Shown here in pieces: positions 44,059 to 58,805 of a stretch of 64,000 bases of DNA (its first letter is position 1; each line of letters begins with the position of its first letter). The DNA lies in assembly GCA_965231015.1 (NCBI GenBank), contig OZ246408.1:481237-545236 (forward strand), read 5' to 3'. The notes beneath the pieces are model-generated. The model was not told the DNA's origin. It did not search any database and saw only the letters and a program-made list of their open reading frames with translations. The position numbers and the translations under genes were made by a program. The stretch is from an uncultured Gammaproteobacteria bacterium. Lineage in GTDB: Bacteria; Patescibacteriota; Patescibacteriia; UBA9934; CAZDDW01.

Positions 44059-44115
44059 AAAAAATTATCATTATTATTCTTTTGTTGTTGGTCTTTTTAT
44101 AATTGTTGATTGCTA

Positions 44116-45221: not shown

Positions 45222-45345
45222 CAATTTCGCCACAACGTTCCTGCGTATGCGATGTTTGCTAGTGGTATAATTGCACGAAGTGCTTACCACTGGCAAATAT
45301 GGGTGCAGTGAGGAGGAGGTACAACGACGAACGGAACCGCATATT
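45222..45345. repeat. partial repeat R2' (module B: hairpin CCAGTGGTATAATTGCACGAAGTGCTTACCACTGG)
   Basis: It is near-identical to the right half of R3. Confidence 0.7.
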
Positions 45346-45350
45346 CTTTG

Positions 45351-45899
45351 TTATATGATGTTTTTGTGTGACACGTCATTAAGATAAAACAATATTGCAA
45401 TCAATGATATACCGTCTGATATTTCCTTGTTTTCAATCAGTTCTTTGACTTTAGCAATAGAGAGCCAATGGATTTCATTGACTTCATCTGTATCAAAATC
45501 TATTTGTTTAGAACTATCAGCTTCACCAATAACTACATGTGTCGTTTGGTTTGACATTCCGTTTGAAGGATTGAAAGAATAATGGAGTTTTAATGCCTTC
45601 GTTCTAAACCCAGTTTCTTCTAGCACTTCGCGTTCAGCGGCTTTCAAAATATCCTCGCTTTTATCGATTCCACCGGCGGGTAATTCCCACTGAATCTGTT
45701 GGGTTGTATAGCGAAGTGCTTTTATGAAGCAAATGTCTTTTTTATCGTTGGTCAACAAAACGACTACAGAATCGTTTGGATAGTCTAAAAAATGGTATTT
45801 TTCAATAATTTTACCAGAAGGCATTAAAACCCTGTCTGTATAGAGGTTGATCCATTGGCTCTCGTAGATTGTTTTTCGCTCTAGTCTTTCAGGTAACAT
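45351..45899 (-). CDS. NUDIX hydrolase
   Basis: It carries the Nudix box GGIDKSEDILKAAEREVLEETGF. Confidence 0.85.
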   Translation of the reverse strand: MLPERLERKTIYESQWINLYTDRVLMPSGKIIEKYHFLDYPNDSVVVLLTNDKKDICFIKALRYTTQQIQWELPAGGIDKSEDILKAAEREVLEETGFRTKALKLHYSFNPSNGMSNQTTHVVIGEADSSKQIDFDTDEVNEIHWLSIAKVKELIENKEISDGISLIAILFYLNDVSHKNII

Positions 45900-45943
45900 A
45901 TCTTGATTGTATTAGTGTCACACAAAAATTTCACACAACGGCC

Positions 45944-46240
45944 GGCGGCTATGCGACGTGGTCCGGAGACGAGCTTACTCGTCGACGGGCCATGTCCGCA
46001 TAGCTGACTGTTGTGCGATGTCGCGTAGCGACGAGCGCAACAAAAGGCGTAGCCGCCGGCCGTTGTGGCGAAGGAGCGAAGCGATTTCGCCACAACGTTC
46101 GCGTATATCTGATGTTTTGCGGAGCGTAGCGGAGCAAAATATGGGAGAGCGACGGCAGGAGCGAACCAGATATACGCTGTTGTGCGAGGGTGAGCGACGA
46201 TAGGAGCGAAAGTGCAACGACCCCGAAGCGTATTTTTCAA
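45944..46240. repeat. GC-rich repeat element R2 (core module A + modules C and D)
   Basis: See R1. The core 45944..46115 is nearly identical. Confidence 0.8.
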
Positions 46241-46359
46241 TATTTTTTCATTCTTTATTATTTTGTTGAAGAATTTTATTATTATTTGGAATTTTTATTT
46301 TTTCGTTTTTCTTTTTCCAAGAGGGATTAGGGGTGAATTGGAAAAAGAAAAACACCTTA

Positions 46360-47840
46360 CTAAAAAAATCCTCTCATTTTCTCAATAGACTGTTTTAGCT
46401 GTTTTATATCGGGTTTTCCATTATCTTTTTGATGATGAATTTGATTTCTCAAAAATGTATGAATAGTTACTTCATTTTGATTTCCTTTCCATGGAGAATC
46501 TTTTGTTTCTTGTTTTTCACTTTGAAAATAATCTATATCAAATTTTTTGATTGCTTTAGTAATGGTTTCCTTTGTTCCGTCTTTTTTTTCTATTTCTTCT
46601 TGTCCATGTTTAAATATTAATTCTTCGTATAATTCGTTGTGATATTCTTCAGTTGCTAACCCAAAAGCAATAAAATTTACTTCGTTAGCTGAAACATATG
46701 GTAAAACTCTTTTTTCTAATTCTAAAATTTTTACTTCTTCATTTTCTTTCTCTAAGCAATGAATTTGAATTTTGCTATTGTCATTATTTAATGTTTGTTT
46801 AACAAAAAGTGGAGAGTGAGTAGAAAATAGAAATTGATTTTTTTCAGAAATTGAAACTATGTGGTTAATAAAATTATTTTGTAAATCTGGGTGCAAATGT
46901 AGTTCTGGCTCATCAATTAAAATCAAAATGTTTTCTTTTGAAATTTCTGCCATTGTTTCTAAAAATAATAAGGAAACAACCATTTCAACACCTGATCCAA
47001 GTTGAGATATCGGCAAATCTAAACTTTCTAATTTTTGAGAAAGAAAAGCACTATCAAAAGGTGCGTTACAATCAATTAGTGAAAGATCTGCTTTCGGTAA
47101 GCCGACTTTTTCAAGTTTTTCGTTTAATGTCTGAAATGTTTTTTGTTGTGATTTTTCGTCAATTTTTTCTAAAACGCTTGTTTCAAAATTATTTTTTTGA
47201 GTTGTAAATTTTTCTCCGTCAAAATCTTCCTTTGTTTCATTTTTTTTATTTCTTTATTAAATCTCCAATTAAAATCTTCAAAAACTGACGAAATGGAAGA
47301 ATTAAACCCTCTCTGTAATTGTTTTTCTCTGTTTTTTGGAAAATAAAAACTTTTTGGCAACCCTTCTGATTCCAAAGGAAAAGATAACTGTCTTTCATCA
47401 AATTTAAATTTTGTTCCTGTCCCTCTTGTTATCTCCCAGCCATTTTCATTATCTTTTTCTCTGTTTGGTAAAACATAATGAGACACAACAACAATATCTG
47501 AAAATGCTTTTTTAGGAGTTGCCCTATCTCTCTTTTTTATTTCCAAGCAAACTTTACTGCATTCAACATCTTGTTTAGTATAGCCGTCAGGTAAAAAGAT
47601 TTTAAAGTTTTCATTAAATTCTAAAATAATCTTTATTTCAACATCTTCGCCTTTATAAAAATCTGTATGTTTTATTCTTCCTGATAAAAAATAAGGAGAA
47701 AGACAAAAATTTATTGCTTCCAAAATAGAGGTTTTACTTGTTCCATTTTCACCAACAAGCAAAGAAAGATTTTTTAGTTCAAAATCTTTTAATTCTTTTA
47801 TGCCTCTAAAATTTTGGATTGTGATTGTCTTTATCTTCAT
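46360..47840 (-). pseudogene. AAA_21/ABC-like ATPase (OLD/RecF-type) disrupted by frameshift(s): N-part 47169..47840, C-part 46360..47016
   Basis: The N-terminal part has Walker A (LLVGENGTSKTSILEAINF). The C-terminal part has the signature and Walker B (SQLGSGVEMV...LILIDEPELHLHP...STHSPLF). The roughly 150-nt gap between them contains T8 homopolymers. Confidence 0.55.
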
Positions 47841-47860
47841 AACTTTTTTATTTAAAAAAT

Positions 47861-48943
47861 CTAAACTCCCACAAAATATCTATTCTCTTCTTTTGTGGCA
47901 AAAACTTTTTCTTCTTTTTTCTTGTGTATCGATTCTGTTTTTGGCGTTTGATTCATTTTTTCATTCTTCTGTATTCTTTTATTTCTGATTAAAATTCTAA
48001 AATATGGACATTTTCCATTTATAGACAAATCTTTTTCGTCATTTCCTTTTCTGAATTTAATTATTTCAAACTGATCTGGGTTGAATTTATGTAAAAAAGT
48101 TATCGGTACACCCATAACACCTGAATAATCCAAAGGAATATTTTGTGTTTTATTCACATTAATTCCATGATAATTATCATAATGAGGATACTCAGTTTCG
48201 TTTCCAAAATATTTCTTAGTAAGAGGAATATCTTCGTGTCTTTTAGAAGTATCTAAATTGGTGAGCCATAGACAATTATTTGGGGAGACTATTCTATTTC
48301 CAAAGTCATCAATACGGGCTTCTGTTCCATAAAGCTCATAATGTTCTGGAACAATAAAGCCTGAAATACCTCTACCTAGATTTATTCCTAACCACGCTTT
48401 ACTTCTCTTAATTAATTTAAAAATTTCTTTGTAGGTTATAGCATTAATATTGCCAATAATCAGAAATTTCTTATCATATTTAACCAATTGATCTACGTGC
48501 TCTCTAAATAATGAAAATGGTGGATTAGTAACAACTATATCGGATTGTTTTAATAACTGGATACTTTCCGCACTACGAAAGTCCCCATCCCCTTTAAAGT
48601 GAACAATATCATCTGAACTTGGCTTTGTTTTTTCATCTTGAGCACCTGTATATTCATAAAAAAATCCACATTCAGATACCTCAGTATTAAATAAATTTCT
48701 TTCTTGTTTTTTATAACAAGCCGCTATTAATTTTTTAAGTCCTAGCTCTTTGAAGTTTAAAGCAAAATAATGAAAAAAATTACTAATTTTTGGATCATCG
48801 CAATTACAAAAAACCACTTTGTTTTTAAAATGATCTTTATAATGTTGCAATTCGCTTTCTATATCTGAAAGTTGAGTGTAAAACTCATCACTTTTTGATT
48901 TTTTAGCTTTTTGCAGTAATGTATTTGTTGCATTTCTTGCCAT
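47861..48943 (-). CDS. N6-adenine DNA methyltransferase, M.EcoRI family
   Basis: The N-terminus MARNATNTLLQKAKKSKSDEFYTQ...VVFCNCDDP is near-identical to M.EcoRI as recalled. The NPPF motif is present (IVVTNPPFSLF), and the C-terminus reads GKCPYFRILIRNKRIQK. Confidence 0.85.
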   Translation of the reverse strand: MARNATNTLLQKAKKSKSDEFYTQLSDIESELQHYKDHFKNKVVFCNCDDPKISNFFHYFALNFKELGLKKLIAACYKKQERNLFNTEVSECGFFYEYTGAQDEKTKPSSDDIVHFKGDGDFRSAESIQLLKQSDIVVTNPPFSLFREHVDQLVKYDKKFLIIGNINAITYKEIFKLIKRSKAWLGINLGRGISGFIVPEHYELYGTEARIDDFGNRIVSPNNCLWLTNLDTSKRHEDIPLTKKYFGNETEYPHYDNYHGINVNKTQNIPLDYSGVMGVPITFLHKFNPDQFEIIKFRKGNDEKDLSINGKCPYFRILIRNKRIQKNEKMNQTPKTESIHKKKEEKVFATKEENRYFVGV

Positions 48944-48970
48944 AATCAAATTTTATAAATAAAATTTTAG

Positions 48971-49806
48971 TTATTTGCTCTTAGTTATCTGTTTAAATAT
49001 TTCACTTCCTAATACTTGAAGAGAGGTTTTTGAAATCTCAATCATAATGTTAAACATCTCTTTTGCATCCCATTTTTCTCCATTGCCTTGTGTATATATT
49101 GAAGTTGCCTGAAGCATAATTGTTTTATCTTTGTGTTTAACAAATTTATTTTTACACAGATTAGTATTAATTGGCATTCCATAATTTGCAGAGGTCAGCC
49201 TATCTAACCTATTTAACATTCCTGAATTGTATTCAAGTGTCACAACCCTTCCATCAGGTCTTTTAATTGAAATAGTTTCTGTTAAAAAATTTGACCCCTC
49301 CAAAAATAAGATATATGGAAAATGGGATTCATATAGCATAAAGTTGGCAATTTCTGATATGTTTTTATGTGATCTTTCTATCGCGTTACCGGCAGCCATC
49401 AAGTCTTGATTGTTGTTTATACCAACTTGATTTCCTTTCAGTATATTTTCAATGTCTTTCCCTTGATGTTTAGCCTCCGTTACAAGTAATACTCTCCAAT
49501 TATCGCTATCGTCTTTTACTTCTATTATTCCGCCATCAGGTTTAATGCTTGAATTTGATACAAAAATAGTTTGTCCTAACTCTGGATCAATTTTCTTTAA
49601 TGCTTCGTTTATTTCTTCCTTTTTTATGCTTGTTCTATATCTAAAAGATAATTGAGGAAATTCTTTTTCAAGTTGTTCAATTACAAGATGTGAAATTTTA
49701 CCAACACTTATATCATGCGATTTTGCGTTTTCTCCAAATATACCAACTACTCCGTGAGATTTTTATGCTGATTTGTTAATCTTTTAGATTGATTCTTTTT
49801 AGCCAT
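48971..49806 (-). pseudogene. EcoRI-family type II restriction endonuclease, N-terminal frameshift in T5/A5 run at 49760..49764
   Basis: The region downstream of the frameshift matches R.EcoRI closely: GVVGIFGENAKSHD, PQLSFRYRTSIKKEEINEALKKIDPELGQTIFVSNSSIKPDGGIIEVKDDSDNWRVLLVTEAKHQGKDI and QDLMAAGNAIERSHKNISEIANFML. The N-terminus MAKKNQSKRLTNQHKN is in the -1 frame; one extra A restores the full ORF. Confidence 0.8.
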
Positions 49807-49894
49807 ATTGTTTTTTGAATAAGTAAGGTGTCTTTATTATAGTGTTTTTTTATAAAAATTTAAAATTCATTTTTTGCGGAAGTATGAAGCAAAA

Positions 49895-49918
49895 AATACC
49901 ATATATCCCCCTCATTAA
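49895..49918 (-). promoter_or_regulatory. motif ATGAGGGGGATATATGGTA (minus sense) about 110 nt upstream of the EcoRI-like R start; related copies upstream of C gene
   Basis: The same about 19-nt motif occurs twice at 56629..56647 and 56681..56697. Confidence 0.4.
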
Positions 49919-49981
49919 AATAAAAATTCCATTCCTTTTTAAATTCTTCAACAAAATTCTTTATTTGAGAAAAAATATTGA

Positions 49982-50150
49982 AAAATATGTCGCACAACGT
50001 TAGGGCTATACGAAGTTTTTCGACCGAAGGGAGAAAAATTTGGAGAAATGGCGAGCCGAGCCATTTCTCGTATAGCCCTTGTTATACGAGGGTGAGCGAC
50101 CAACGGGAGCGAAAGCGCAGCGTCCCCTTGCGTATGACGCAGGCAGGCGA
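49982..50150. repeat. partial repeat R3' (modules sharing AAAAATATGTCGCNNAACGTT and GAGGGTGAGCGAC..GGAGCGAAAG with R2 and 44539..44600)
   Basis: The same sub-modules occur in R2 and at 44539..44600, as seen by eye. Confidence 0.5.
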
Positions 50151-50156
50151 TTTTCG

Positions 50157-50936
50157 TCAGTCCATCTTTTTCATTGGTTTATTGGGATCAACATTATCAT
50201 AATAAAAGTCAAAACCCAGCTCATCAAAAATATTCTCAAATTCTGTAAATACTTGTTCCACCACTTTCTGAAGTTTGGCAAAATTTTGGTACTCACCATT
50301 AATAATGATTTGGAGTAAGTCGTCAAAATGCTCAGGCTTCTTTTTGAATTTCTTTGCTTCTTCTATGAATTTTGCAAATGTTGTATAAGGCTTCTGATTT
50401 AGAAAAGTTAATGTTATTAACATGTAATTGCACATGTCAAATACCAAAAGGGAAATGCCAAGTTTGTTTTTTTTCGTGATAGCATTTAGAACTTTAGCAG
50501 TTGATTCTTGTAGGTCTCCGAAGTGATGAATGATCTGCTTGTGACACTTTTCTTTAAGGTTCTTAACTTTGTAATTGTTGAGACGATCTATAAAAGGTTT
50601 ATTGATGAGTGGAAGTAATTTATCAGAACCGGAAAGAAACCAATCAGGCGTGGGCTCTTTCACTGTTTTTATGTATGAGTCTTTAGTCATCCAAACCAGT
50701 TCAACCAGAAGACCATCACGGATTTTGCCCATGCCCGCCCAGGTTTTACCTCTTGGCATTTCCCGAACAAATGCAATTAACTCTAAATCAGAATAGCCAA
50801 AATCTTCGTTTCTAGCAAAAGAAGCCTGAGCCGCTAATGCAATAAGATTTTTGCCAAACTTCTTTTTGATAAGTGGAACAAGTTCTTTAACTACTTGCTC
50901 TCTTTCTTTATGAGAATATTTTTGTAGACCACGCAT
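50157..50936 (-). CDS. nucleotidyltransferase of the ANT(4')/KNTase/Lnu superfamily (NTase domain + KNTase_C-like helical domain)
   Basis: The sequence KEREQVVKELVPLIKKKFGKNLIALAAQASFARNEDFGYSDLELIAFV matches the pol-beta-type NTase motif ([GA]S...SD[LI]E[LM]). The protein is 259 aa. Confidence 0.6.
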   Translation of the reverse strand: MRGLQKYSHKEREQVVKELVPLIKKKFGKNLIALAAQASFARNEDFGYSDLELIAFVREMPRGKTWAGMGKIRDGLLVELVWMTKDSYIKTVKEPTPDWFLSGSDKLLPLINKPFIDRLNNYKVKNLKEKCHKQIIHHFGDLQESTAKVLNAITKKNKLGISLLVFDMCNYMLITLTFLNQKPYTTFAKFIEEAKKFKKKPEHFDDLLQIIINGEYQNFAKLQKVVEQVFTEFENIFDELGFDFYYDNVDPNKPMKKMD

Positions 50937-51014
50937 AGTGTTAGATAGTTTATATTAGTATATAAATATTGCTGGGTTTTGACCATCTTAGAAAATCGCC
51001 TGCCGAGTAATATT

Positions 51015-51300
51015 TCGTATAACGGCCGGCGGCTATGCGACGTGGTCCGGAGACGAGCTTACTCGTCGACGGGCCATGTCCGCATAGCTGACTGTTGTGC
51101 GATGTCGCGTAGCGACGAGCGCAACAAAAGGCGTAGCCGCCGGCCGTTGTGGCGAAGGAGCGAAGCGATTTCGCCACAACGTACCTGCGTATGCGATGTT
51201 TGCCAGTGGTATAATTGCACGAAGTGCTTACCACTGGCAAATATGGGTGGAGGCTTGCGGAGGTACGGAGCAAGCCGTAACCGCATACGCAGTGTTAGCT
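51015..51300. repeat. GC-rich repeat element R3 (core module A + module B)
   Basis: See R1. The core 51020..51185 is nearly identical. Confidence 0.8.
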
Positions 51301-51364
51301 GATGTATTCCTTTTCTTTTCGACGATAGTCGTTTGTTTTAAAAATTTTCAAATTTCTTTTTCCG

Positions 51365-51473
51365 TTTTGGGTGGTGGGCAGAGGGGAATTAAAGGGGTGA
51401 ATGCCCGCCACCCAAAACACCTATTTCTGTTTGAGGGAGGGGCAAGAGGGGAACAAAAGGGGTGAATTGCCCC
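51365..51473 (-). terminator. two tandem GC-rich hairpins directly after the Ppl-like gene stop, loops sharing GAGGGGAAYWAAAGGGGTGAAT
   Basis: Hairpin 1 is TTTTGGGTGGTGGGC..GCCCGCCACCCAAAA. Hairpin 2 is GGGGCAA..TTGCCCC. Both are flanked by A/T runs. Confidence 0.5.
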
Positions 51474-51486
51474 GACCGAAAACATG

Positions 51487-54339
51487 TTATTTGTTTAACA
51501 AATATTTCCTTTCTCGCTGTCTAAAGGCTTCCTCTCCACCTTCAAGAATATCTCTTATATTTTTGTTTATTTCTGGATTTTCAATACTGCCTGATAAATA
51601 GCCTAATTCTTGATCTAGCCTTGCTACGATTATTTGTTCGGCATCCGCATTAACTACTAGATTAGCGTTGTGGGTCGACATTATGATTTGTCTTGATTGT
51701 TTGGCCTTCCGGATGAGTGGGACAAGTTCATTCATTATGAAATTGTTATCAAGGTTGTCTTCAGGTTGATCTATAATGAAAACTTGTTTTGCCGTTGCAG
51801 TAGCTAAATAGACTTTTAGTAAAAGGGTTCCTCTTTGTCCGATAGATAAAATTTCAGTTGCCTTTCCATTTAACTTTGCAATTGCTTTTACTCCCAAGAA
51901 GTCAGCCCATTCAGTGAAAATGTAATATGTGATTCCGCTGATTCCATCACGACTAAAACATTTTTGTTCGCCTAGGTCAGTTTTTTGTATCCATACTGAT
52001 AGATTCTCAAAGGTTATTTCTCGGGGCGTTCCGTCTTCATTTGTGCCAGCTATCATTTTTTTCAGATCAGTTTCATTTGCTACTTTCCGGTTATCCAGAA
52101 AATCATCCAATACACGCTTAGCAAACTTTTTGAAATTAAATTCAATTTTTCCCTCAACTTCAATGCCATTGATAATTTTTTCGAATAGTTCCTTCTCTTC
52201 GGCTGTTGAATCATCGCGTGAATTTTGAAAATCTTTAAATGCTTGTGTGATGGCATTTCGTAGGGCAAGTAATGAATTACTGATTTGTTCCAAGATTTTT
52301 CTTTTCTCCTCATGCAAGTCCACCAATTGTGTTATTGACCGATTGTAATTCTCAAGATCTTTTCCAATGTTGCTTATTTGGCGTTGTAAATTTTCACTGG
52401 CCTGTAATAAGGTATTAACATCTTCCTTAATACCCTGTTCAATAAGTTTCTTTTTTAGAGCAATGATTTCTTCTCTCAATTTAGTCATATCTGCCTCAAT
52501 TTTTGTCTGTAATTCGCTAAGTACTTTTGTCTGTTTGCTGATATTTAGACCCTCAATCTCTTCGTTGTCGGGGTAGTGGTTTTTTAGAATAATGTTGAAG
52601 TTGGCTATTTCTTGTGTGATTGGCAATTCACGAAGGCCTAGCAGTAGTGTGTTTGCTTTTTCTTTCAACTCTTTAAGCTTAAGTCCTTTTTCAGTTTTTT
52701 TATTTATTTCATCAAGTGTCTCCTTTGTTTCTTTTGATGAGAGTCTTTTTTGTTGGTCTGTAAGTTTTGCTAAATAGCTTGCTATCCATTTTTCCAAGTC
52801 TTCGCCCTCGGTATATCCAAGCTCTTTATACCGTTCAATAATGTCTCGGGTACGTTGCTGGGTATTATCAATATCACCAAGTACATCTCGTGCTTTTGAA
52901 GTTAAAACTTCTTGGCCTATTTCGTTAACGTCAATGCCAATCAAATCGCAAACAGTTCGTGTTAGTTCAAAATCATTTGTTGCAATACCGCTTAGCCTTT
53001 CTTGTCCTAGGTACAAAAATGGTAATTCAAGATTTGTTTTATCCGAAAGTTCCTTCTCAAATTCAGACATATCACCATCTTTATCTATCAATGAAGTTTT
53101 GAATGTATAAGAAGGACGTGGCTCTGTTCTTGCTTCATTATCTCTATAATATTCAATAATCTTTTTCTTATTGTTTTGATCTAATTTTAAATGTTCCTCA
53201 TTAAGAAAAGCGAAAGTATCAAGCAGAGCACTTTTTCCACTTCCTCTACCGCCAATTAATGCTATAAGCTCTCTATTTAATAGTATTTCTAAGTCAGGCA
53301 AAACAAAATTTTTACTTCCAGTTAGTTTTATTGAATCAAAATATATTTTCTTTTTTTCTTCGTATGGGTTCTGTTCTTGAATTTTTACTCTTTCCGAAGG
53401 TTCAAATAGTAATTGTTTCAGCCCGTCAAATGTTGGGTTGGATTTAATCCATGTATATCTTTTATTGTCTGGTTCAAATAACTTTTCGTAGGTGTGGGAA
53501 TCTGACCCCCAAATGCATGGTTTAAGGCTTTTAAATTCATTAATGTATTCTTGGGGATTCTCATGCTTTCTTCCAAGACCCCAATTTATCGTAGCTTGAT
53601 TTGAACTGATAAGTACATCAGATTTTTGAATATAAATTTTTCTTACATTATGATCTTGTCCATCCCAAGAAATTTTACTTAAATCTTCATCAGAAGGTAC
53701 ACACATCATATACATGCCTGCAAATTTCGATTTCTTATTAGTTAGTATTTCTGCTATCTGAGTGTGATTTACTACCGCACACTTCATGCCGACAAATAAG
53801 TCAGTATCTGAGTTAAACTCTGCGTGCTCTTTCTTTAGACTTTGACCCAACGTTTCAAGGTTGGGAATTTTTAATTTCCATTTTTCATCAGTGCCTTGAG
53901 GATTTCCTTCATAAATAAAATCTAATTCGTGGAGGAAATTTTCTTCAATATCTGTAATTAAAACTTCATCTGAAAAAATCACATGAAAATTTACTCGGTT
54001 ACCATCTACTAACGTATCAAGGCGAAATTCTACATTTGGGAACAGTTTTATTTTTTTAATTTGCTTAATTTCTTTATCCGTAAATAGTTCAGCAAGCTTG
54101 GTGTCATTATTCAGGTACTCCTGCTTTATCTTCTTATATCCTTCAATGCAGAAGTAATCAGTAATTCCTATAACCGCTATCTGCTTTTCAATGGCAGCTT
54201 TAAAAAGCTTTTTAACATATTCATCGAAGTCATCGCCAAAGCCATTACTTAAATGCGAAAAGGGAGTATGAACCTGTAAATCCCATTTTCTCCAAATCGA
54301 CCCCCTTTGAAACTGATTGTATTTAACTTCGTCAGACAT
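51487..54339 (-). CDS. PHP-domain phosphoesterase fused to SMC/ABC-type ATPase with coiled-coil (Ppl-like single-gene defence candidate)
   Basis: The N-terminal PHP motifs are WDLQVHTPFSH, NVEFRL, NFHVIF and GSDSH. Walker A is LIGGRGSGKSALLDTF, followed by a long coiled-coil middle. The C-terminus has Walker B/D-loop FIIDQPEDNLD and H-loop MSTHN. Confidence 0.7.
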   Translation of the reverse strand: MSDEVKYNQFQRGSIWRKWDLQVHTPFSHLSNGFGDDFDEYVKKLFKAAIEKQIAVIGITDYFCIEGYKKIKQEYLNNDTKLAELFTDKEIKQIKKIKLFPNVEFRLDTLVDGNRVNFHVIFSDEVLITDIEENFLHELDFIYEGNPQGTDEKWKLKIPNLETLGQSLKKEHAEFNSDTDLFVGMKCAVVNHTQIAEILTNKKSKFAGMYMMCVPSDEDLSKISWDGQDHNVRKIYIQKSDVLISSNQATINWGLGRKHENPQEYINEFKSLKPCIWGSDSHTYEKLFEPDNKRYTWIKSNPTFDGLKQLLFEPSERVKIQEQNPYEEKKKIYFDSIKLTGSKNFVLPDLEILLNRELIALIGGRGSGKSALLDTFAFLNEEHLKLDQNNKKKIIEYYRDNEARTEPRPSYTFKTSLIDKDGDMSEFEKELSDKTNLELPFLYLGQERLSGIATNDFELTRTVCDLIGIDVNEIGQEVLTSKARDVLGDIDNTQQRTRDIIERYKELGYTEGEDLEKWIASYLAKLTDQQKRLSSKETKETLDEINKKTEKGLKLKELKEKANTLLLGLRELPITQEIANFNIILKNHYPDNEEIEGLNISKQTKVLSELQTKIEADMTKLREEIIALKKKLIEQGIKEDVNTLLQASENLQRQISNIGKDLENYNRSITQLVDLHEEKRKILEQISNSLLALRNAITQAFKDFQNSRDDSTAEEKELFEKIINGIEVEGKIEFNFKKFAKRVLDDFLDNRKVANETDLKKMIAGTNEDGTPREITFENLSVWIQKTDLGEQKCFSRDGISGITYYIFTEWADFLGVKAIAKLNGKATEILSIGQRGTLLLKVYLATATAKQVFIIDQPEDNLDNNFIMNELVPLIRKAKQSRQIIMSTHNANLVVNADAEQIIVARLDQELGYLSGSIENPEINKNIRDILEGGEEAFRQRERKYLLNK

Positions 54340-54342
54340 AAA

Positions 54343-55419
54343 CTATTTGATAAATCGTATTTGCAGGTTGAGTTTGATAAACATTTCGCCGTTTTCTTCG
54401 TAAACTGTGCCGTATCCGTGGCGTGTTGCACTTGGTGATTCCATGCGAGTGTTATTAAACAAGTAATTTCGAAACGCTTCCGCATTATAAAGATGATAAC
54501 AAACGATTTCGCCGTCTTCACGAACCACAATCACTCCACCGTGGGCACGCAAGGTACCGTCCCATGCACTGGCGGGAACCATTCCGAGAGCTGCATTATT
54601 GAGTAATGCTTTGATTTTGTAGGCGTAGTCTTCGGTGGAAAGTTTGAAATTCAAAATTTGCATTTTTTCATCTTGCAAGTGTTGCAATAATTCCGGGAAA
54701 GTTGCGCCTTTGTCAGAGAAATAAGCCAAAAGAACTTCCGCCATTATTTCTGGCATGATCGTGTCGATTTTTCGTAAGTTTCGCTCGAAAACTTCGGAAT
54801 CAATGCCGTGAAACGCAAACGCTCCGCCCGCTTCACGAATTGCGAAAAGGCGATCACGAATTTTTGCCTTTGTATCAATTGTATTTATTTCTTCAATTTT
54901 TCGTTCATCAAGTCCTGTGATTTTGTATGTAAAGTTAGTTGCTCCCGAAGCGTTGAGAAGTGTTGCGGGTGAACCGAGTTTTGATTTGATACTGAATCCT
55001 ATTTCGTGATCTCGTCCGATCGTGTGATCATGGACTTTCAAAATCAAATCTTCTTTCCGTGCATTTCCGGCATTGAGGGTTTTTATTCCAAAGCGTTCAA
55101 AAAGTTCGTCCGCAAGTGGGACGGAAAAGGTTTGTGATTTTTCTTTAATCTCCGCAAATACTTCAACGACTTTCGATTTCAAATCGGAGGTGTCTACGAT
55201 TGTGGTTTCGCCGTCAATGTGCAAGATTTTCACTTTTTCTCCTTCTTGCAATTCGTATTCCGATTTCCCCTCGGTCTCCTCACGGATTATTTTCAAAATT
55301 GGAAAAAAGACCGCTTCGATTTTTTCGAGTTCTTCATCAGCTCCGATGATTTTTTTATCGACGAGAAGTTTTATAAAAGCATAAAACTCGCTCCATTCGC
55401 CTTTATTTCCTGTGATCAT
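54343..55419 (-). CDS. type II restriction endonuclease candidate (HpaII-like family by N-terminal GNKGEWSE.Y...KLL pattern; assignment tentative)
   Basis: It lies immediately downstream of, and 3'-overlapping, a C5-MTase in a C-M-R arrangement. Motifs GNKGEWSEFYAFIKLL and SIKSKLGSPATLLNASGATNFTYKI are present. Confidence 0.5.
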   Translation of the reverse strand: MITGNKGEWSEFYAFIKLLVDKKIIGADEELEKIEAVFFPILKIIREETEGKSEYELQEGEKVKILHIDGETTIVDTSDLKSKVVEVFAEIKEKSQTFSVPLADELFERFGIKTLNAGNARKEDLILKVHDHTIGRDHEIGFSIKSKLGSPATLLNASGATNFTYKITGLDERKIEEINTIDTKAKIRDRLFAIREAGGAFAFHGIDSEVFERNLRKIDTIMPEIMAEVLLAYFSDKGATFPELLQHLQDEKMQILNFKLSTEDYAYKIKALLNNAALGMVPASAWDGTLRAHGGVIVVREDGEIVCYHLYNAEAFRNYLFNNTRMESPSATRHGYGTVYEENGEMFIKLNLQIRFIK

Positions 55420-56320
55420 AAGTATTGAGTGATTGGATAATTTGTTGAGCGACCGCTTGAATGGCAGTAACCGCAACCGCATTTCCCAGTTGCTTCATTG
55501 CTTTCATGTCTGAAACTGGAAATTCAAAATCATCGGGGAAGCCCATCATTTTTTTACCTTCAACCGGTGAAAGTCGTTTTACTTTTCCTTTTACCATGTA
55601 TGAATCCCAGTTATGGCGATCATCAATTTTTGATCCTCGTCCACCAACACGAAGTGTATATCCGATTTTCTTTTCGCAAGGTGCGCCCCAAATGTCGGAC
55701 ATGGTTTTTTCGAGTTTGATTGGTTCCGGAAATTCAAATTTTATATTTGGATCTTTGAATCCGACCATAAATAGACGGGGTCGGTGTTGCGGAAGCCCAA
55801 AATCGGACGCTTTAACTATTTTGTAATGGAATGAATAGCCAAGATCATCGGTTATTGTTTTTTTAATAACTTCAAAAGTTTTTCCGTCGTCGTGATTCAA
55901 CAAGTGTCGAACATTTTCCAAAAAGAAAGCCGTCGGTTGTTTTTCTTTGATGATTCTTACTATGTCATGAAAAAGTGTTCCGCGAGTATCTGAAAAACCT
56001 TTTCTAAAGCCGGCTTGTGAGAATGGCTGACAAGGAAAACCACCCGTCAAAATATCAAAGTCGGGGATTTCTTTTTCATCTACCTTGGTAATGTCGCCTG
56101 CAAATAATTCTTTTCCTTCCGCAAAAAGGCCTTTTTTGAAAAGCTCAGGTTGGATTTTTTTGAAATTATGCTCGTATGTTTGGCGTGCGTGTTCGTCCCA
56201 TTCACTTACAAAAACGCATTTTGCACCCGCATTGTGAAAAGCCAAATGAAAACCACCTATTCCAGCGAACAGGTCAATGAAAGTGATTTCCCGTTTTTTC
56301 TTTTGAGTTTTCGCTTTCAT
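55403..56320 (-). CDS. DNA (cytosine-5)-methyltransferase (Dcm/HhaI-type, short TRD)
   Basis: Motif I is DLFAGIGGFHLAF, motif IV is GGFPCQPFSQAG, motif VI is FFLENV and motif X is QLGNAVAV. Confidence 0.9.
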   Translation of the reverse strand: MKAKTQKKKREITFIDLFAGIGGFHLAFHNAGAKCVFVSEWDEHARQTYEHNFKKIQPELFKKGLFAEGKELFAGDITKVDEKEIPDFDILTGGFPCQPFSQAGFRKGFSDTRGTLFHDIVRIIKEKQPTAFFLENVRHLLNHDDGKTFEVIKKTITDDLGYSFHYKIVKASDFGLPQHRPRLFMVGFKDPNIKFEFPEPIKLEKTMSDIWGAPCEKKIGYTLRVGGRGSKIDDRHNWDSYMVKGKVKRLSPVEGKKMMGFPDDFEFPVSDMKAMKQLGNAVAVTAIQAVAQQIIQSLNTYDHRK

Positions 56321-56322
56321 AG

Positions 56323-56532
56323 TTATTTTATTAAGTCGTTAATGTCCACTTCAAGTGCTTGCGCAATTTTTGTCATTGTTTCGATTGTTGGGTTTCCGTT
56401 GTTTCCTGATTCTAAAGTAACAATTGTATTGAGTGCGACATCAGCAAGTTTTGATAGTCGGTCTTGCGATATCCCTTTTTCGGTACGGATCTTTTTTAAG
56501 TTCTTACCTATGTTTGCAATGTTTGGTTTCAT
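56323..56532 (-). CDS. XRE-family HTH protein, R-M controller (C) protein candidate
   Basis: The sequence is MKPNIANIGKNLKKIRTEKGISQDRLSKLADVALNTIVTLESGNNGNPTIETMTKIAQALEVDINDLIK. It lies directly upstream of the MTase. The start was set at an internal ATG. Confidence 0.7.
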   Translation of the reverse strand: MKPNIANIGKNLKKIRTEKGISQDRLSKLADVALNTIVTLESGNNGNPTIETMTKIAQALEVDINDLIK

Positions 56533-56609
56533 ATACCAGTAGAATGTAATAGTTACACTGGTTGTATTGTATCGTGTCTGAAATGCTTGGTCAATTCTTA
56601 TAAATAAAT

Positions 56610-56705
56610 GTTCCGCCGACAGGCGGAACTCCATATATTCCCCTCATCAAAAAAGCGTTTCCGTAGCTTTGCGGAGGAAACACCATATTTCCCCTTATAA
56701 AAAAG
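56610..56705. promoter_or_regulatory. two tandem units of [GC hairpin + CCATATWTCCCCT motif] upstream of the C gene
   Basis: Unit 1 is GTTCCGCC gaca GGCGGAAC + tccatatattcccctcat. Unit 2 is GTTTCCG tagctttg CGGAGGAAAC + accatatttcccctta. Confidence 0.45.
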
Positions 56706-56840
56706 AAAAAGAAATTTGAAAATTTTTTAAAACAATTGGGCGATAGCCCAGAAAAGAAAAGGAATATTTCAGCTAACTCGTTTATATGTGAAGTAAAGTT
56801 CGGATAAAGTATGGATTTAAGATAATATCCGATCCTAATC

Positions 56841-58805
56841 TTACCTATTATCAAACCACCATGTAAAGATGTCACGGGCGATAGGGACGGCCACACTTGA
56901 TCCCTCCCCTCCGTTCTCAATCAATACGGCCATGGCGATTTCTGGCGACTCATATGGTCCAAACCCGGTAAACCAGGCGTGGTTTTCTGCGTCACCTCCG
57001 ACCTGAGCGGTTCCGGTTTTACCGGCCACCTTCTCAGAAGAACCGGCCATGTAACGGGCTGAACCATCAGTTACAGTTTGCCGCATTCCCGAGCGAACGA
57101 TTTCGATTGTATTGTCTGACACCACCTGATCATTAACTATGCTTGGTGGATTTATCACTTCCCCATCTTCTGCCCAAAAAGAGCGAATTACTCTTGGTTC
57201 ATAGAGTGTTCCACCGTTAGCAAACACGGTGGTCGATAAAGCCATTTGAAGCGGGGTCACCAATATATCTCCCTGTCCAATGGCTAAATGGTAAGTGTCA
57301 CCAATGTACCAGCGTTCACCCTTGACCTCCTCTTTCCATTCTTTGCTTGGTAGGAATCCAGTTGCTTCACCGGGTAAATCAATTCCGGTTTGGGAGCCGA
57401 GTCCAAACTTGGCCGCGTACTCAGTAATACGAGCAACTCCGAGACCAATAAAGTCATAATCTTCATGCCCACCTCCGACGATGTAGAAAAAAGTATTGAC
57501 GGAGTCAGCAATGGCTTTGCGAACATTTGTTATCCCGTGTCCACCTGCCCGCCAGTCAGGGAAAAACCATTCCGTTATTCTGACTCCTCCTACAGACAAG
57601 AAGCTGGTGCGCTCATCAATAATCCCTTCTTCTAGGGCGGCGCTGGCTACGATTGGTTTAAAAGTTGAGCCCGACGGGTATTCTCCAGAAATAGCTCGGA
57701 AGAACAGTGGCTGGTTATCATCATTGATTAAAGCCGAGTAATTTTCTGTGTCGATTCCACCAGAGAAGTCATTGCTGTCAAAAGATGGAAGGCTGACCAT
57801 TGATAGTACCTCGCCATTGTTTGGATCTATTACAACCACACTGGCTTTTCGGCTATTTGATGTTTTTTGGTATTCGATTAAACGGTCTTCGATGTATTCT
57901 TGAAGATCCGCATCAATACTCAGGCGGATATTGTAGCCATTCTGTGCTTCTTCATGAGTAAGCACGGTGACTTCTTGACCGAGCGCATCCACTTCCACAA
58001 TTTTTCTTCCCGGAATTCCTCGTAAAAAGGCCTCGTATGTTTTTTCGATTCCCTGCCGACCAATTTCTTCGCTACGACGGTATCCTTGTTCCAGGTACTG
58101 ATCAATTTCTTCTGCATTGATTTTACCCATGTAGCCAAGCAGATGGGAAAGAGACAGGGCTCGATCAGTGGCATAGTCACGCTTGGTGTTCAGATAAATT
58201 TTTACACCGCGCAAAAAATGGTTTGAAGTTGCCATGCGCAAGGCAGCCTCATAATCCATGTCACGAGCCACTGGAATAGGTTCTAATGGCACGGAGGAGT
58301 ACTCGGAAAGGAGATTTTCAATATCGAGTGGGTTTTGTCCGGTGGCTTCGGCAATGGTTTGAATCACCAAGGATCGCTCGTGCTCGTCTTCGGGTAGATC
58401 AGCCGCGGTGATTGCAACCGTAAAAGTGGAAACATTGTCTACCAGGGTGGAACCGTTTCGGTCGTACACTACCCCGCGCATTGGTGAAATAACCTCAATA
58501 CGAATCCGATTCCCTTCAGCTAACACTCGATAGTTGCCCCCTTCAATAACCTGAAGTTGAGCCGCCCTCCCCATAAAAATTCCGAAAACCAGTATGGTTA
58601 TGACGAGCAAATTTCGTAAAGTTTTCTTTTTTACTGTTTTGCTGATGTACTCACTCGAACGCGTTTCTTTAGTTTCCGTGATGATAGCCTCATTAATTTC
58701 ATGTTCCCGGTCTTCCTTATCCAAATTATAATTTTTAAAAACGTCCTTTTCTATTCCAAAAGGGTTAATAGATTGGTTAGATTGTCGGTGTTTAAACCAC
58801 TTCAT
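56841..58805 (-). CDS. mrdA: penicillin-binding protein 2 / peptidoglycan D,D-transpeptidase (MrdA/FtsI class B PBP)
   Basis: It has the dimerisation domain and a transpeptidase with SxxK (PSGSTFKP) and KTGT motifs. It is adjacent to mreBCD. Confidence 0.85.
   Translation of the reverse strand: MKWFKHRQSNQSINPFGIEKDVFKNYNLDKEDREHEINEAIITETKETRSSEYISKTVKKKTLRNLLVITILVFGIFMGRAAQLQVIEGGNYRVLAEGNRIRIEVISPMRGVVYDRNGSTLVDNVSTFTVAITAADLPEDEHERSLVIQTIAEATGQNPLDIENLLSEYSSVPLEPIPVARDMDYEAALRMATSNHFLRGVKIYLNTKRDYATDRALSLSHLLGYMGKINAEEIDQYLEQGYRRSEEIGRQGIEKTYEAFLRGIPGRKIVEVDALGQEVTVLTHEEAQNGYNIRLSIDADLQEYIEDRLIEYQKTSNSRKASVVVIDPNNGEVLSMVSLPSFDSNDFSGGIDTENYSALINDDNQPLFFRAISGEYPSGSTFKPIVASAALEEGIIDERTSFLSVGGVRITEWFFPDWRAGGHGITNVRKAIADSVNTFFYIVGGGHEDYDFIGLGVARITEYAAKFGLGSQTGIDLPGEATGFLPSKEWKEEVKGERWYIGDTYHLAIGQGDILVTPLQMALSTTVFANGGTLYEPRVIRSFWAEDGEVINPPSIVNDQVVSDNTIEIVRSGMRQTVTDGSARYMAGSSEKVAGKTGTAQVGGDAENHAWFTGFGPYESPEIAMAVLIENGGEGSSVAVPIARDIFTWWFDNR

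What the first reader, a model, noticed from the sequence alone, without database searches (positions are those of the whole stretch)
54343..56705. Complete C-protein / C5-methyltransferase / restriction-endonuclease operon with structured upstream repeat units
There is a classic controller-M-R organisation on the minus strand: a 70-aa XRE HTH protein, a 305-aa Dcm-type MTase and a 358-aa REase candidate with 3' overlaps. The MTase is among the shortest C5-MTases, implying a short target. The REase N-terminal pattern is suggestive of the HpaII (CCGG) family, but I could not verify this.

Upstream of the C gene lie two tandem units, each a GC hairpin followed by CCATATWTCCCCT. These are candidate C-boxes or a promoter. 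The region also marks the island's right boundary.
Basis: partly seen in the sequence, partly recalled or inferred. Interest (0 to 1): 0.55.

Follow-up and report, generated by a model that had tools for sequence, protein, structure and literature searches.

The report
Restriction-modification cassette in integron-like array
The operon is a real, intact HpaII-type (probably CCGG) restriction-modification system, and the folded repeats in front of it are not its control sites but the standard end-piece of a family of mobile gene cassettes that form integron-like arrays in Patescibacteria.

Summary
On the minus strand lie a 70-aa XRE regulator, a 305-aa C5-methyltransferase and a 358-aa full-length HpaII-family endonuclease, preceded by two tandem motif-plus-hairpin units.

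- **C-boxes.** The units are not C-boxes. The best operator candidate is a unique 28-bp dyad (56535-56562) between a strong promoter (TTGACC-17-TACAAT) and the C start codon.
- **What the units are.** They belong to a ~180-nt cassette "head" starting at 56777. A partly inverted "tail" lies at 51294-51486, so one 5.6-kb cassette carries C-M-R plus a TrlF-family ATPase.
- **How common the ends are.** The same 22-nt terminus occurs on more than 120 metagenome contigs, flanking unrelated and mostly defence-related cargo.
- **Cassette structure.** Each cassette starts GTTnnnn and ends with the exact complement nnnnAAC, followed by a covarying imperfect palindrome that resembles an integron attC site.
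- **Recombinase.** In relatives, an IntI-related tyrosine recombinase lacking the IntI-specific domain sits divergently 57-107 nt from the first cassette. The window has at least eight cassettes and no recombinase gene.

The restriction-modification system is ordinary. The cassette platform appears to be an undescribed integron variant.

The parts
56778..56840 (-). attI-like spacer between the PBP2 stop codon (56841) and the first cassette. It ends ACATATAAACGA|GTT.
   Evidence: The 12-nt junction is identical to the one in L125, where the recombinase gene starts 75 nt away. There is loose similarity to the recombinase-adjacent spacers of L099, L136 and L131.
56756..56777 (-). Cassette 5' terminus GTTAGCTGAAATATTCCTTTTC. 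It contains the R'-type core GTTAGCT.
   Evidence: Homology with L003-L006 starts exactly here. The 22-mer is invariant in 62 heads, though that part is by construction because the loci were retrieved with this pattern.
56737..56750 (-). Head hairpin 0, TGGGC-tatc-GCCCA, followed by a T-rich tract. It looks like a terminator.
   Evidence: Flagged by the terminator scan. It is 89% paired across 62 heads, with changes on both sides at 3 of 5 pairs. The tail carries a hairpin of different sequence at the same position.
56699..56735 (-). Conserved T-rich tract TTGTTTTAAAAAATTTTCAAATTTCTTTTTC.
   Evidence: An inverted copy lies at 51333-51368, 91% complementary. It is nearly invariant in heads and tails.
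56649..56696 (-). Unit 1: AAGGGGAAATATGG, hairpin 1 (56655-56683) and a T-run. This is the generic cassette-head element.
   Evidence: Present in most of the 62 heads regardless of cargo. The stem covaries (U-A in 37 sequences, C-G in 13 at one pair). It is 82% paired, against 42-58% when the partner columns are slid.
56610..56645 (-). Unit 2: GAGGGGAATATATGG plus hairpin 2 (GTTCCGCC/GGCGGAAC, 56610-56629), followed by ATTTATTTAT.
   Evidence: Flagged as terminator-like. It is shared only by cassettes whose first gene is a C-type HTH, including four whose downstream cargo differs from this M-R. The loop varies while the stem is constant.
56566..56594 (-). Operon promoter candidate: TTGACC, 17 nt, TACAAT.
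   Evidence: Scores 10 of 12 in the promoter scan. Both hexamers are conserved in most C-M-R relatives, with the -10 divergent in L086.
56535..56562 (-). Candidate C operator: dyad ACCAGT-N16-ACTGGT, with an inner palindrome TGTAActaTTACA (56545-56557). It ends 2 nt before the C start codon.
   Evidence: Conserved in L003-L006 and L009 even where the rest of the leader diverges. It is unique in the window, with 0 matches expected by chance. It is found in 7 of 202 loci, always directly upstream of C.
56323..56532 (-). C gene: 69-aa XRE-family HTH regulator.
   Evidence: Pfam HTH_19/HTH_3. The best solved relatives are C.BclI (5.5e-6) and C.AhdI (3.8e-4). The short start is conserved; the 103-aa extension is not.
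55403..56320 (-). M gene: 305-aa C5-cytosine DNA methyltransferase.
   Evidence: PF00145 at 1.6e-85 and TIGR00675 at 297 bits. The catalytic half matches M.HhaI at 6e-70, and the target-recognition part is unmatched.
54343..55419 (-). R gene: 358-aa HpaII-family restriction endonuclease.
   Evidence: PF09561 at 1e-112, full length. Relatives are 358 aa with a conserved N-terminus and 55 invariant columns.
51487..54339 (-). TrlF-family PHP/ABC-type ATPase, 950 aa. It occupies the variable second slot of the cassette.
   Evidence: NF045780 at 543 bits against a cut-off of 350, with a distant PADLOC Ppl match. The same slot holds PDC-S06 ATPases in L003 and L004, and a 217-aa protein plus an MBL-fold protein in L006.
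51294..51486 (+). Cassette tail, read inward on the plus strand. It comprises the terminus GTTAGCTGATGTATTCCTTTTC (51294-51315), hairpin CGAC-gata-GTCG (51320-51331), the T-rich tract, and two 64-nt hairpin units (51356-51419 and 51421-51484) with loop GAGGGGAAnnAAAGGGGTGAA.
   Evidence: Across 55 tails, 88.7% of cells are paired against 32-54% when slid, and 19 of 24 pairs change on both sides. The segment is 96-98% identical in L003 and L009.
51174..51300 (-). attC-like site of this cassette: R'' AGCTAAC, L'' CTGCGTATGCG, about 86 nt of variable sequence, L' CGCATACGCAG, then ggtAC|GTTGTGG (R', which is the start of the next unit).
   Evidence: In 38 of 58 distinct tails an L'' is followed 45-86 nt later by its complement, in at least six sequence variants, and then by AAC|GTT.

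Best explanation
**What it is.** The interval holds an intact Type II restriction-modification module: an XRE-type regulator C, a C5-methyltransferase M and an HpaII-family endonuclease R. The target is predicted to be CCGG. Together with a TrlF-family ATPase gene, this module is the cargo of one integron-style gene cassette. The cassette runs from 56777 to about 51180 and includes its attC-like site. It is the first of at least eight cassettes in a recombinase-less array (about 43.7-56.8 kb) in a Patescibacteria genome.

**How it most likely works.**
- *Inferred:* the promoter TTGACC-17-TACAAT transcribes C-M-R, and probably TrlF, as one message. C binds the 28-bp dyad that overlaps the expected transcription start and represses its own operon. 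This keeps M and R at a fixed low level wherever the cassette lands.
- *Inferred:* R is translated less or later than M. Its start codon has no ribosome-binding site and lies inside the end of M.
- *Shown:* the two tandem units are the inner part of a ~180-nt head shared by the whole cassette family. Unit 1 is generic. Unit 2 is the variant found in cassettes that start with a C gene.
- *Inferred, low confidence:* the head hairpins with T-runs, and the mirror-image tail hairpins, act as inward-facing terminators that insulate the cassette. Hairpin 2 separates the generic head from the C-controlled promoter. The invariant 22-nt termini and the attC-like palindrome are the recombination site.
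- *Inferred:* the site is used by an IntI-related tyrosine recombinase with crossover at or near G|TT. That recombinase is encoded next to such arrays in related genomes but not in this window.
For: **R-M identity.**
- Pfam, NCBIfam and PDB matches.
- Near-universal M-then-R order in 80 loci, with exceptions such as L038 and L073.
- Conserved 358-aa R with 55 invariant columns.
- Relatives carry a vsr gene right after R, as expected for a 5mC system.

**Operator and promoter.**

**Discrete cassette.**
- Homology with L003-L006 runs exactly 56777 to 54343, then the cargo varies, then the tail is shared.
- Head and tail are inverted repeats of about 95 nt, with a structurally equivalent hairpin of different sequence.
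- The 22-nt terminus occurs on more than 120 metagenome contigs and on no viral contig.
- 21 complete head-to-tail cassettes span 0.4-9.2 kb. Their 134 cargo ORFs fall into 108 families rich in R-M and ATPase defence genes.

**Integron-like logic.**
- Every window cassette starts GTTnnnn and ends with the exact 7-nt complement. There are seven such pairs with five different sequences (plus GTTATAC/GTATAAC read directly).
- The attC-like L''/L' arms covary.
- The recombinase is divergent and 57-107 nt from the first head in L131, L099, L136 and L125.
- Its best solved relative is the integron integrase IntI4, at 5.4e-51, ahead of XerA (9e-44) and XerD (4e-24).

**Hairpins are selected structures.** U-G wobble pairs are common on the inward-reading strand, which favours a strand-specific RNA or single-stranded DNA role.

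**Generic heads carry a promoter.** A TAYAAT -10 lies at a fixed 24-29 nt after hairpin 1 in 23 of 51 heads. The C-type heads lack it and carry hairpin 2 plus their own promoter instead.
Against: - No experiment or transcript data exist. Operator binding, the terminator function of the hairpins and recombination are all inferred.
- CCGG specificity rests on family membership of R only. The target-recognition part of M matches nothing of known specificity. CCGG is not avoided in the genome (observed/expected 1.16).
- The recombinase scores below the curated integron-integrase cut-off (190-244 against 265) and lacks the IntI-specific domain. No recombinase gene lies in the 64-kb window.
- Simple terminators would not need the near-invariant AGGGG motifs, the T-rich tract or the conserved loop. 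These suggest sequence-specific recognition by a protein, so an accessory role in recombination may be the main one.
- The dyad does not fit the 35-bp C.PvuII-type box architecture.
Confidence: 0.65

Rival explanations
1. One reading: the two units are the C-boxes or the promoter through which the C protein controls the operon.
For: They lie upstream of C, are tandem and are conserved in the closest relatives.
Against: - Unit 1 is present in about 60 cassette heads whose cargo has no C gene.
- The same motif occurs inverted in tails and upstream of the EcoRI-like cassette, which has no C gene.
- Cassettes whose C protein is only 66-71% identical and whose operator differs share an identical unit 2.
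- A separate dyad fits the operator role better.
Confidence: 0.04
2. The head and tail are mainly recombination accessories. They would be binding sites for the recombinase or a cofactor, and extended arms that help the tail-attC-head palindrome fold. Any effect on transcription would be incidental.
For: - The 22-nt termini, the T-rich tract and the AGGGG loop motif are nearly invariant, while the stems covary.
- The tail of one cassette and the head of the next form a ~2 x 95-nt inverted repeat around every attC-like site.
- The recombinase lacks the IntI domain that canonical integrases use (PMC9668308), so it may need sequence-specific arms.
Against: - T-runs follow the hairpins only on the inward-reading strand.
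- Wobble pairs indicate a strand-specific structure.
- Other cassettes in the same arrays lack this head and tail yet keep the GTT/AAC cores.
Confidence: 0.3
3. The 5.5-kb segment is a non-autonomous transposon bounded by long terminal inverted repeats with sub-terminal repeats, moved by a transposase encoded elsewhere.
For: The terminal inverted repeats span about 95 nt, with two repeated motif units inside each end. The same ends occur in many genomic contexts.
Against: - No target-site duplication was seen.
- No transposase ranks among the commonest cargo families, though only the top 25 families were listed.
- The ends always abut attC-like palindromes with covarying arms and AAC|GTT junctions.
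- Cassettes sit head to tail in arrays next to a tyrosine recombinase.
Confidence: 0.07
4. The units are an RNA leader or attenuator. The Shine-Dalgarno-like AGGGG motif and the hairpins would form alternative structures that tune cargo expression, or they would start short leader peptides or a 103-aa form of C.
For: - The motif resembles a ribosome-binding site followed by ATG.
- GGGGAAA can pair with the 5' arm of hairpin 1, by my own inspection of the sequence.
- Gene callers annotate the 103-aa form.
Against: - The ATG of unit 1 is AAG in L004, and the ATG of unit 2 is absent in L006.
- The ORF that starts in unit 2 is 5, 19 or 33 aa long, or in frame with C, depending on the locus.
- In generic heads the second AGGGG lies in the spacer of a putative promoter, not before a start codon.
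- I saw no obvious covariation for the alternative helix on inspecting; it was not formally tested.
Confidence: 0.1

Closest known systems
HpaII restriction-modification system (Haemophilus parainfluenzae; C^CGG; Pfam PF09561)
   Same: R is a full-length family member. The M gene lies directly upstream on the same strand. A vsr-type repair gene follows R in the closest relatives. From my own recollection, not checked here, the original HpaII locus also has a neighbouring vsr-like ORF.
   Different: - This system has a C-type regulator as its first gene. Among the 80 loci that was found only in the nearest relatives.
- M is 305 aa, shorter than the solved M.HhaI (327 aa) and M.HaeIII (324-331 aa).
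- The window copy has lost vsr and is joined to a TrlF ATPase gene.
- Specificity is untested.
C-protein (controller) regulated R-M systems: PvuII, AhdI, Esp1396I, BclI, Kpn2I
   Same: The regulator is a small XRE HTH protein. Its best solved relatives include C.BclI and C.AhdI. A conserved dyad lies immediately upstream of its own gene, and the leader is short and lacks a Shine-Dalgarno sequence.
   Different: In the studied systems C is co-transcribed with R, the promoter is weak and C-activated, and the box is about 35 bp with a GTG centre, 17-18 nt from the ATG (PMC2632904). Here C heads a C-M-R operon behind a near-consensus promoter. The 28-bp dyad lies between the -10 and the ATG, which is a repressor-type layout.
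Integrons (bacterial sedentary and mobile integrons; archaeal integrons, PMC9668308)
   Same: - Arrays of co-oriented cassettes.
- Each cassette begins GTTnnnn and ends with the complementary nnnnAAC.
- An imperfect palindrome follows, with paired inner arms and a variable centre.
- The recombinase gene is divergent from the first cassette, with a short attI-like spacer.
- The recombinase is closest to IntI4 among solved structures.
- Cargo is rich in defence genes, as reported for Vibrio integrons (PMC12409362).
   Different: - The recombinase lacks the IntI-specific additional domain and scores below the TIGR02249 cut-off.
- Many cassettes carry ~180-nt conserved head and tail inverted repeats and probably their own promoter.
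- Cassettes reach 9 kb and six genes. By contrast, integron defence cassettes are reported to be streamlined, and systems of more than two genes to be absent.
- The host phylum is Patescibacteria. I found no report of integrons there.
Xer/dif-type modules (for example the pdif modules of Acinetobacter plasmids; named from my own knowledge, not checked here)
   Same: Gene modules are bounded by inverted copies of a recombinase site, and the recombinase is Xer-like in size and domain make-up. NF040815 'XerA/integron integrase' is the only model scoring above its cut-off.
   Different: No 28-bp dif-like site with an XerD-type arm was recognised. The junctions contain a ~110-nt folded palindrome. 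The 7-nt cassette start and end complement each other as they do in integron cassettes.

Membership tests
HpaII-family Type II restriction endonuclease | Full-length match to the family profile (PF09561) above the curated cut-off. | tested here: met
   377.5 bits against a cut-off of 25, covering profile positions 1-359 of 359.
HpaII-family Type II restriction endonuclease | A cognate C5-methyltransferase gene is adjacent. | tested here: met
   M lies directly upstream and overlaps R by 17 nt. The same order holds in nearly all of 80 loci.
HpaII-family Type II restriction endonuclease | Cleavage of unmethylated C^CGG, with protection by m5C at CCGG. | not testable with these tools
   This rests on family inference only. 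CCGG is not depleted: 259 sites, observed/expected 1.16.
C-protein (controller) of R-M systems | A small XRE-type HTH protein encoded within an R-M gene cluster. | tested here: met
   69 aa, HTH_3/HTH_19. C.BclI and C.AhdI are among the best solved relatives.
C-protein (controller) of R-M systems | A conserved symmetric binding site (C-box) directly upstream of its own gene. | tested here: inconclusive
   A unique conserved 28-bp dyad ends 2 nt before the ATG. Its architecture and position differ from the 35-bp box placed 17-18 nt upstream. Binding was not tested.
C-protein (controller) of R-M systems | C is co-transcribed with R from a weak C-activated promoter, so that R expression is delayed. 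| tested here: not met
   The gene order is C-M-R behind a 10/12 sigma-70-type promoter, with the dyad downstream of the -10. This is judged from sequence only.
Integron | An integrase of the tyrosine-recombinase family carrying the IntI-specific additional domain (PMC9668308). | tested here: not met
   The array-associated recombinases in relatives score 190-244 bits on TIGR02249, below the 265 cut-off, and match in two stretches. The alignment shows the insertion is absent. There is no recombinase in the window.
Integron | attC sites: R''(..AAC)-L''-variable-L'-R'(GTT..), with paired arms. | tested here: met
   Seven start/end 7-mer pairs are complementary in the window. L''/L' are complementary in 38 of 58 sites with at least six sequence variants. 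This was judged by inspection; the IntegronFinder attC model was not run.
Integron | The integrase gene is divergent from the cassette array, with an attI site between them. | tested here: met
   Met in relatives: L131, L099, L136 and L125 at 57-107 nt, L123 at 264 nt and L003 at 650 nt. In the window only an attI-like junction remains.
Integron | Cassettes are short, mostly single promoterless ORFs. | tested here: not met
   Cassettes are 0.4-9.2 kb with up to six ORFs. 23 of 51 heads carry a positioned TAYAAT -10.
Transposon with terminal inverted repeats | Target-site duplication and a transposase. | tested here: not met
   No duplication at the ends in five loci. No transposase family among the 25 commonest cargo families.
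Intrinsic terminators (head hairpins 0-2) | A G+C-rich stem-loop followed by a U-run on the transcribed strand. | tested here: inconclusive
   Hairpins 0 and 2 pass the simple scan. Hairpin 1 has a 13-nt loop and does not. The stems covary. There are no transcript data.
Rfam RNA families | A match to any curated covariance model. | tested here: not met
   No hit in 43000-57000, even at E up to 1. The only hit in the whole window is a tRNA.

The most novel reading that the evidence does not exclude
Patescibacteria carry a distinct, widespread integron-like gene-capture system.
- Its recombinase is IntI-related but lacks the domain that defines integron integrases.
- Its recombination sites are attC-like.
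- Its cassettes are self-contained expression units, bounded by ~180-nt mirror-image head and tail modules, and they mostly carry defence genes.

Such a system could represent an early or parallel branch in the evolution of integrons from Xer-type recombinases. It could also be a main route of defence-gene exchange in these ultra-small bacteria.
Probability: 0.5. Interest if true: 0.8.

Novelty: new variant of a known kind. Interest (0 to 1): 0.6.

Why it matters
The R-M system itself adds one more member to a very large family.

The value lies in its packaging:
- The repeats give an exact 22-nt handle, GTTAGCTRAWRTATTCCTTTTC, that retrieves more than a hundred cassettes of one platform. This makes cassette content, turnover and host range in Patescibacteria directly measurable in existing metagenomes.
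- If the associated recombinase really acts on these sites, cassette capture would not need the IntI-specific domain. That bears on how integrons arose from Xer-type recombinases.
- It would also show a design that canonical integrons lack: cassettes that bring their own insulated promoter. That would explain how tightly regulated toxic cargo such as a C-controlled R-M operon can be shuffled safely.

There is also a practical point. Assemblies break at these repeats (and the contig ends), so defence islands of these organisms are probably under-assembled and under-counted.

Tried and rejected
- **103-aa form of C.** Rejected. The reading frame from the unit-2 ATG is 5, 19 or 33 aa long, or in frame with C, in different loci. 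The ATG is missing in L006.
- **Units as a genome-wide dispersed repeat.** Rejected. The motif is not enriched in the window. It is absent from about 1 Mb of unrelated HpaII loci.
- **Known RNA families.** No match.
- **CCGG avoidance as an independent check of specificity.** Uninformative, because CCGG is over-represented.
- **Solved structures as a route to M or R specificity.** Only the catalytic half of M matches (M.HhaI), and R has no solved relative.
- **A recombinase in the window.** The flanking genes are housekeeping: PBP2, GreA, tRNA synthetases. tblastn with four array-associated recombinases gave nothing better than E = 0.15.
- **A 10-nt match between the PBP2-proximal spacer and the first codons of the L125 recombinase.** Too short to call a remnant.
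- **Classical transposon.** No target duplication and no transposase.
- **Viral origin.** The terminus is absent from 2.9 million viral contigs.
- **Literature.** Searches combining integron or attC with Patescibacteria or Candidate Phyla Radiation, the IntegronFinder 2.0 paper and the archaeal-integron paper gave no description of such arrays. The library is incomplete, so prior description elsewhere cannot be excluded.
- **Caveat on queries.** The conclusions drawn from them were cross-checked with NCBIfam and PDB searches.

Full report
**1. Observation**

On the minus strand of 54343-56705 the ORF list and sequence show three consecutive genes.
- A 69-aa helix-turn-helix protein at 56323-56532 (HTH_19 at 2e-12, HTH_3 at 4e-12).
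- A 305-aa C5-cytosine methyltransferase at 55403-56320 (PF00145, 1.6e-85).
- A 358-aa protein at 54343-55419 that matches the HpaII endonuclease profile over its whole length (PF09561, 1e-113, profile 1-359 of 359).

M and R overlap by 17 nt. C and M are 2 nt apart.

The two tandem units exist: direct repeat D2 with 50-nt spacing, and the 8-bp hairpin I11. So the description is correct.

- A 950-aa gene starts 3 nt after the R stop codon.
- The conserved upstream block runs to 56777.
- A third similar unit lies at about 49870-49913, in front of a second, EcoRI-like R-M system.

**2. The R-M module**

The organism is a Patescibacteria (CPR) bacterium. The identical R protein is recorded on a 1.0-Mb NCBI contig, and named relatives are Patescibacteria MAGs.

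The family is large: 5,833 proteins at E ≤ 1e-10. Relatives are 358 aa long with a conserved MIxGNKGEWSE start, which fixes the R start at 55419.

In 80 genome loci, a C5-methyltransferase gene precedes R on the same strand in nearly all. A C homologue directly upstream of M was found only in the closest relatives: L003-L006, L009 and L020.

The four closest relatives with sequence downstream of R (L003, L004, L005, L086) carry a 137-aa vsr-type gene right after R. That fits a 5-methylcytosine system. The window has lost it.

CCGG specificity is inferred from family membership only.
- The catalytic half of M resembles M.HhaI and its recognition part matches nothing solved. R has no solved relative.
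- CCGG is over-represented in the window. That argues neither for nor against the assignment.

**3. Control region**

A sigma-70-type promoter, TTGACC-17-TACAAT (56594-56566, 10 of 12), lies between the units and C. Most C-M-R relatives conserve it; the -10 diverges in L086.

Between the -10 and the start codon lies a dyad, ACCAGT-N16-ACTGGT, with an inner palindrome TGTAActaTTACA (56535-56562).
- It is conserved even in L009, where the rest of the leader has diverged.
- It is unique in the window, with zero matches expected by chance.
- It is found in 7 of 202 loci, always directly before C.

Cassettes whose C protein is 66-71% identical have a related but different dyad at the same place.

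Described C systems differ: a 35-bp box sits 17-18 nt before the ATG and the promoters are weak and C-activated (PMC2632904). The layout here is that of an autorepressor on a strong promoter, placed first in a C-M-R operon. C is most similar to C.BclI and C.AhdI among solved proteins, but only weakly.

I therefore read C as a C-type regulator that works by repression. This is an inference from sequence.

**4. What the units are**

*Homology boundaries.* Alignment with relatives shows homology beginning exactly at GTTAGCT (56777) and ending at the R stop codon. After that the gene differs:
- TrlF in the window, L005 and L086;
- PDC-S06 ATPases in L003 and L004;
- two other genes in L006.

A shared block follows that is 96-98% identical to window 51168-51502.

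*Head and tail.* That block is an inverted copy of the upstream block. Both begin GTTAGCTGAWRTATTCCTTTTC and continue with a hairpin, the tract TTGTTTTAAAAAATTTTCAAATTTCTTTTTC, and two units containing AGGGGAA and a hairpin. The first hairpin has a different sequence at the two ends.

None were found among viral contigs. The ends fall into a head type and a tail type.
- 21 complete head-to-tail cassettes span 0.4-9.2 kb.
- Their 134 cargo ORFs fall into 108 families, dominated by Type I, II and IIG R-M genes, ATPases, Fic and NUDIX proteins.

*The two units.*
- Unit 1 is present in most heads whatever the cargo. Its stem covaries.
- Unit 2, with hairpin 2, occurs only in heads that are followed by a C-type gene, including four cassettes whose downstream cargo differs from this M-R.
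- Generic heads instead have a TAYAAT -10 at a fixed 24-29 nt after hairpin 1 (23 of 51 heads).

*Tail hairpins.* They covary strongly. 88.7% of cells are paired against 32-54% when slid, and 172 cells change on both sides against 57 in shuffles. The loop GAGGGG..AGGGGTGAA stays nearly invariant.

*Conclusion.* The units are cassette-end modules, not C-boxes. The 103-aa C annotation that starts in unit 2 is an artefact, because that reading frame is not conserved.

**5. The array**

Within the window, cassette after cassette starts GTTnnnn and ends with the exact complement:

| Cassette start | Position | Cassette end | Position |
|---|---|---|---|
| GTTAGCT | 56777 | AGCTAAC | 51300 |
| GTTGTGG | 51180 | CCACAAC | 51152 |
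| GTTATAC | 51023 | GTATAAC | 50087 |
| GTTGTGC | 49998 | GCACAAC | 46185 |
| GTTGTGG | 46096 | CCACAAC | 46068 |
| GTTAGGC | 44556 | GCCTAAC | 44002 |
| GTTGTGG | 43921 | CCACAAC | 43893 |

Each end is followed by an imperfect palindrome. Across loci, 38 of 58 distinct tails are followed by an arm whose perfect complement lies 45-86 nt downstream. At least six sequence variants occur, and the complement is followed by AAC|GTT and the next cassette. This is the R''-L''...L'-R' layout of integron attC sites. It includes the rule that the first bases of a cassette belong to the same site as its 3' end.

A tyrosine recombinase of about 270 aa occurs in 13 loci.
- It is divergent from, and 57-107 nt away from, the first head in L131, L099, L136 and L125.
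- In L003 the first cassette next to it is the C-M-R cassette.
- Its best solved relative is the integron integrase IntI4, at 5.4e-51, ahead of XerA and XerD.
- It falls below the curated integron-integrase cut-off and lacks the IntI-specific additional domain that defines IntI (PMC9668308).

The window has no such gene. Its junction ACATATAAACGA|GTTAGCT equals the recombinase-side junction of L125.

The island (low G+C) is therefore an integrase-less array of an integron-like system, starting 64 nt after the PBP2 stop codon.

**6. Mechanism and uncertainty**

*Shown:*
- gene families;
- cassette boundaries;
- family-wide conservation and covariation of the end structures;
- core-site complementarity;
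- linkage of the recombinase to arrays in relatives.

*Inferred:*
- C autorepression at the dyad;
- lower or later translation of R;
- terminator or insulator function of the inward-facing hairpins, and of hairpin 2 in particular;
- recombination at G|TT.

The invariant motifs and the T-rich tract suggest protein recognition. A recombination-accessory role for head and tail is therefore a serious rival, and the two roles are not exclusive.

**7. Comparison and novelty**

The R-M module is a new member of the HpaII family, with an added regulator.

Integron cassettes carrying streamlined defence systems, including small Type II R-M systems, are known in Vibrio and in mobile integrons (PMC12409362). 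The short M fits that trend.

Three features differ from described integrons:
- the recombinase type;
- the long mirror-image head and tail with a probable own promoter;
- multi-gene cassettes of up to 9 kb.

I found no report of integrons in Patescibacteria in the searchable library. I therefore rate the whole as a new variant of a known kind. The caveat is that no standard integron software could be run here.

Noticed in passing
L003:8080-8490, L004:2426-2815, L005:3879-4292, L086:9264-9680; the window lacks it at 54339-54343: The closest relatives carry a 137-aa vsr-type (very-short-patch repair) gene 2 nt after the R stop codon. The L003 copy has an in-frame TGA. In the window vsr is gone and the TrlF start codon sits 3 nt after the R stop.
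   Followed up: partly
window 46185-49998 (minus strand): A second cassette holds an EcoRI-like R-M system in decay. The REase gene is frameshifted near codon 17-19 (about 49765). The EcoRI-like N6-adenine methyltransferase (47861-48949) is intact. A downstream AAA_15/AAA_21 ATPase is split by a frameshift (47169-47840 and 46360-47016). Its head carries a diverged unit (49870-49913), and head and tail are again inverted repeats (46260-46300 against 49917-49957).
   Followed up: partly
window 43762-43950, 45937-46125, 51021-51209: A G+C-rich 189-nt element is present three times at 93-98% identity. It reads as a 35-nt 'empty cassette' (GTTGTGGCGAA..TTCGCCACAAC) plus its own ~135-nt palindromic site. 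It explains the spurious G+C-rich ORFs on both strands. Rfam has no match.
   Followed up: partly
L003:5858-5883, L005:1657-1682, L006:946-971, L009:5868-5893, compared with window 56536-56561: In relatives the operator half-sites contain CCGG, the predicted target of the system itself: the right half in L003-L005, the left half in L006 and both halves in L009. The window copy has CCAG and CTGG instead. Methylation of the operator could feed back on expression in those relatives.
   Followed up: no
window, whole 64 kb: CCGG is one of the most over-represented 4-bp palindromes: 259 sites, observed/expected 1.16 (1.18 outside the island). The host shows no avoidance of the predicted target.
   Followed up: yes
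window 51376-51398 and 51442-51464; tails of 55 loci (alignment A7): The loop of the tail hairpins, GAGGGG(AATTAA)AGGGGTGAA, is nearly invariant while the stem covaries. It resembles an extended Shine-Dalgarno sequence (AAGGAGGTGA). Its reader, whether a protein, rRNA or something else, is unknown.
   Followed up: partly
L184:863-938; L153:6800-6943: Very small or empty cassettes exist. L184 has a 76-nt head-to-tail unit. L153 has a tail fused directly to an inverted head fragment. These suggest deletions or exchange inside the end modules.
   Followed up: no
window 56778-56850 (plus strand) against L125:2441-2560: The spacer next to PBP2 contains ATCCTAATCTTA, close to the first codons ATGCCTAATCTTA of the L125 recombinase gene. 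It may be the last remnant of a deleted recombinase gene, but the match is too short to judge.
   Followed up: partly
L001 (5475 nt), L002, and many of L083-L202: Metagenome contigs often begin about 100-120 nt before a head and end about 100-130 nt after a tail. Assemblies therefore break in the repeated sites between cassettes, so such arrays are likely to be fragmented or missing in MAGs.
   Followed up: partly
window 44556-45236: One cassette contains a G+C-rich ORF on the opposite (plus) strand (44608-45102, 164 aa), unlike the other cassettes. It has no attC-like end of the usual form. It was not analysed.
   Followed up: no
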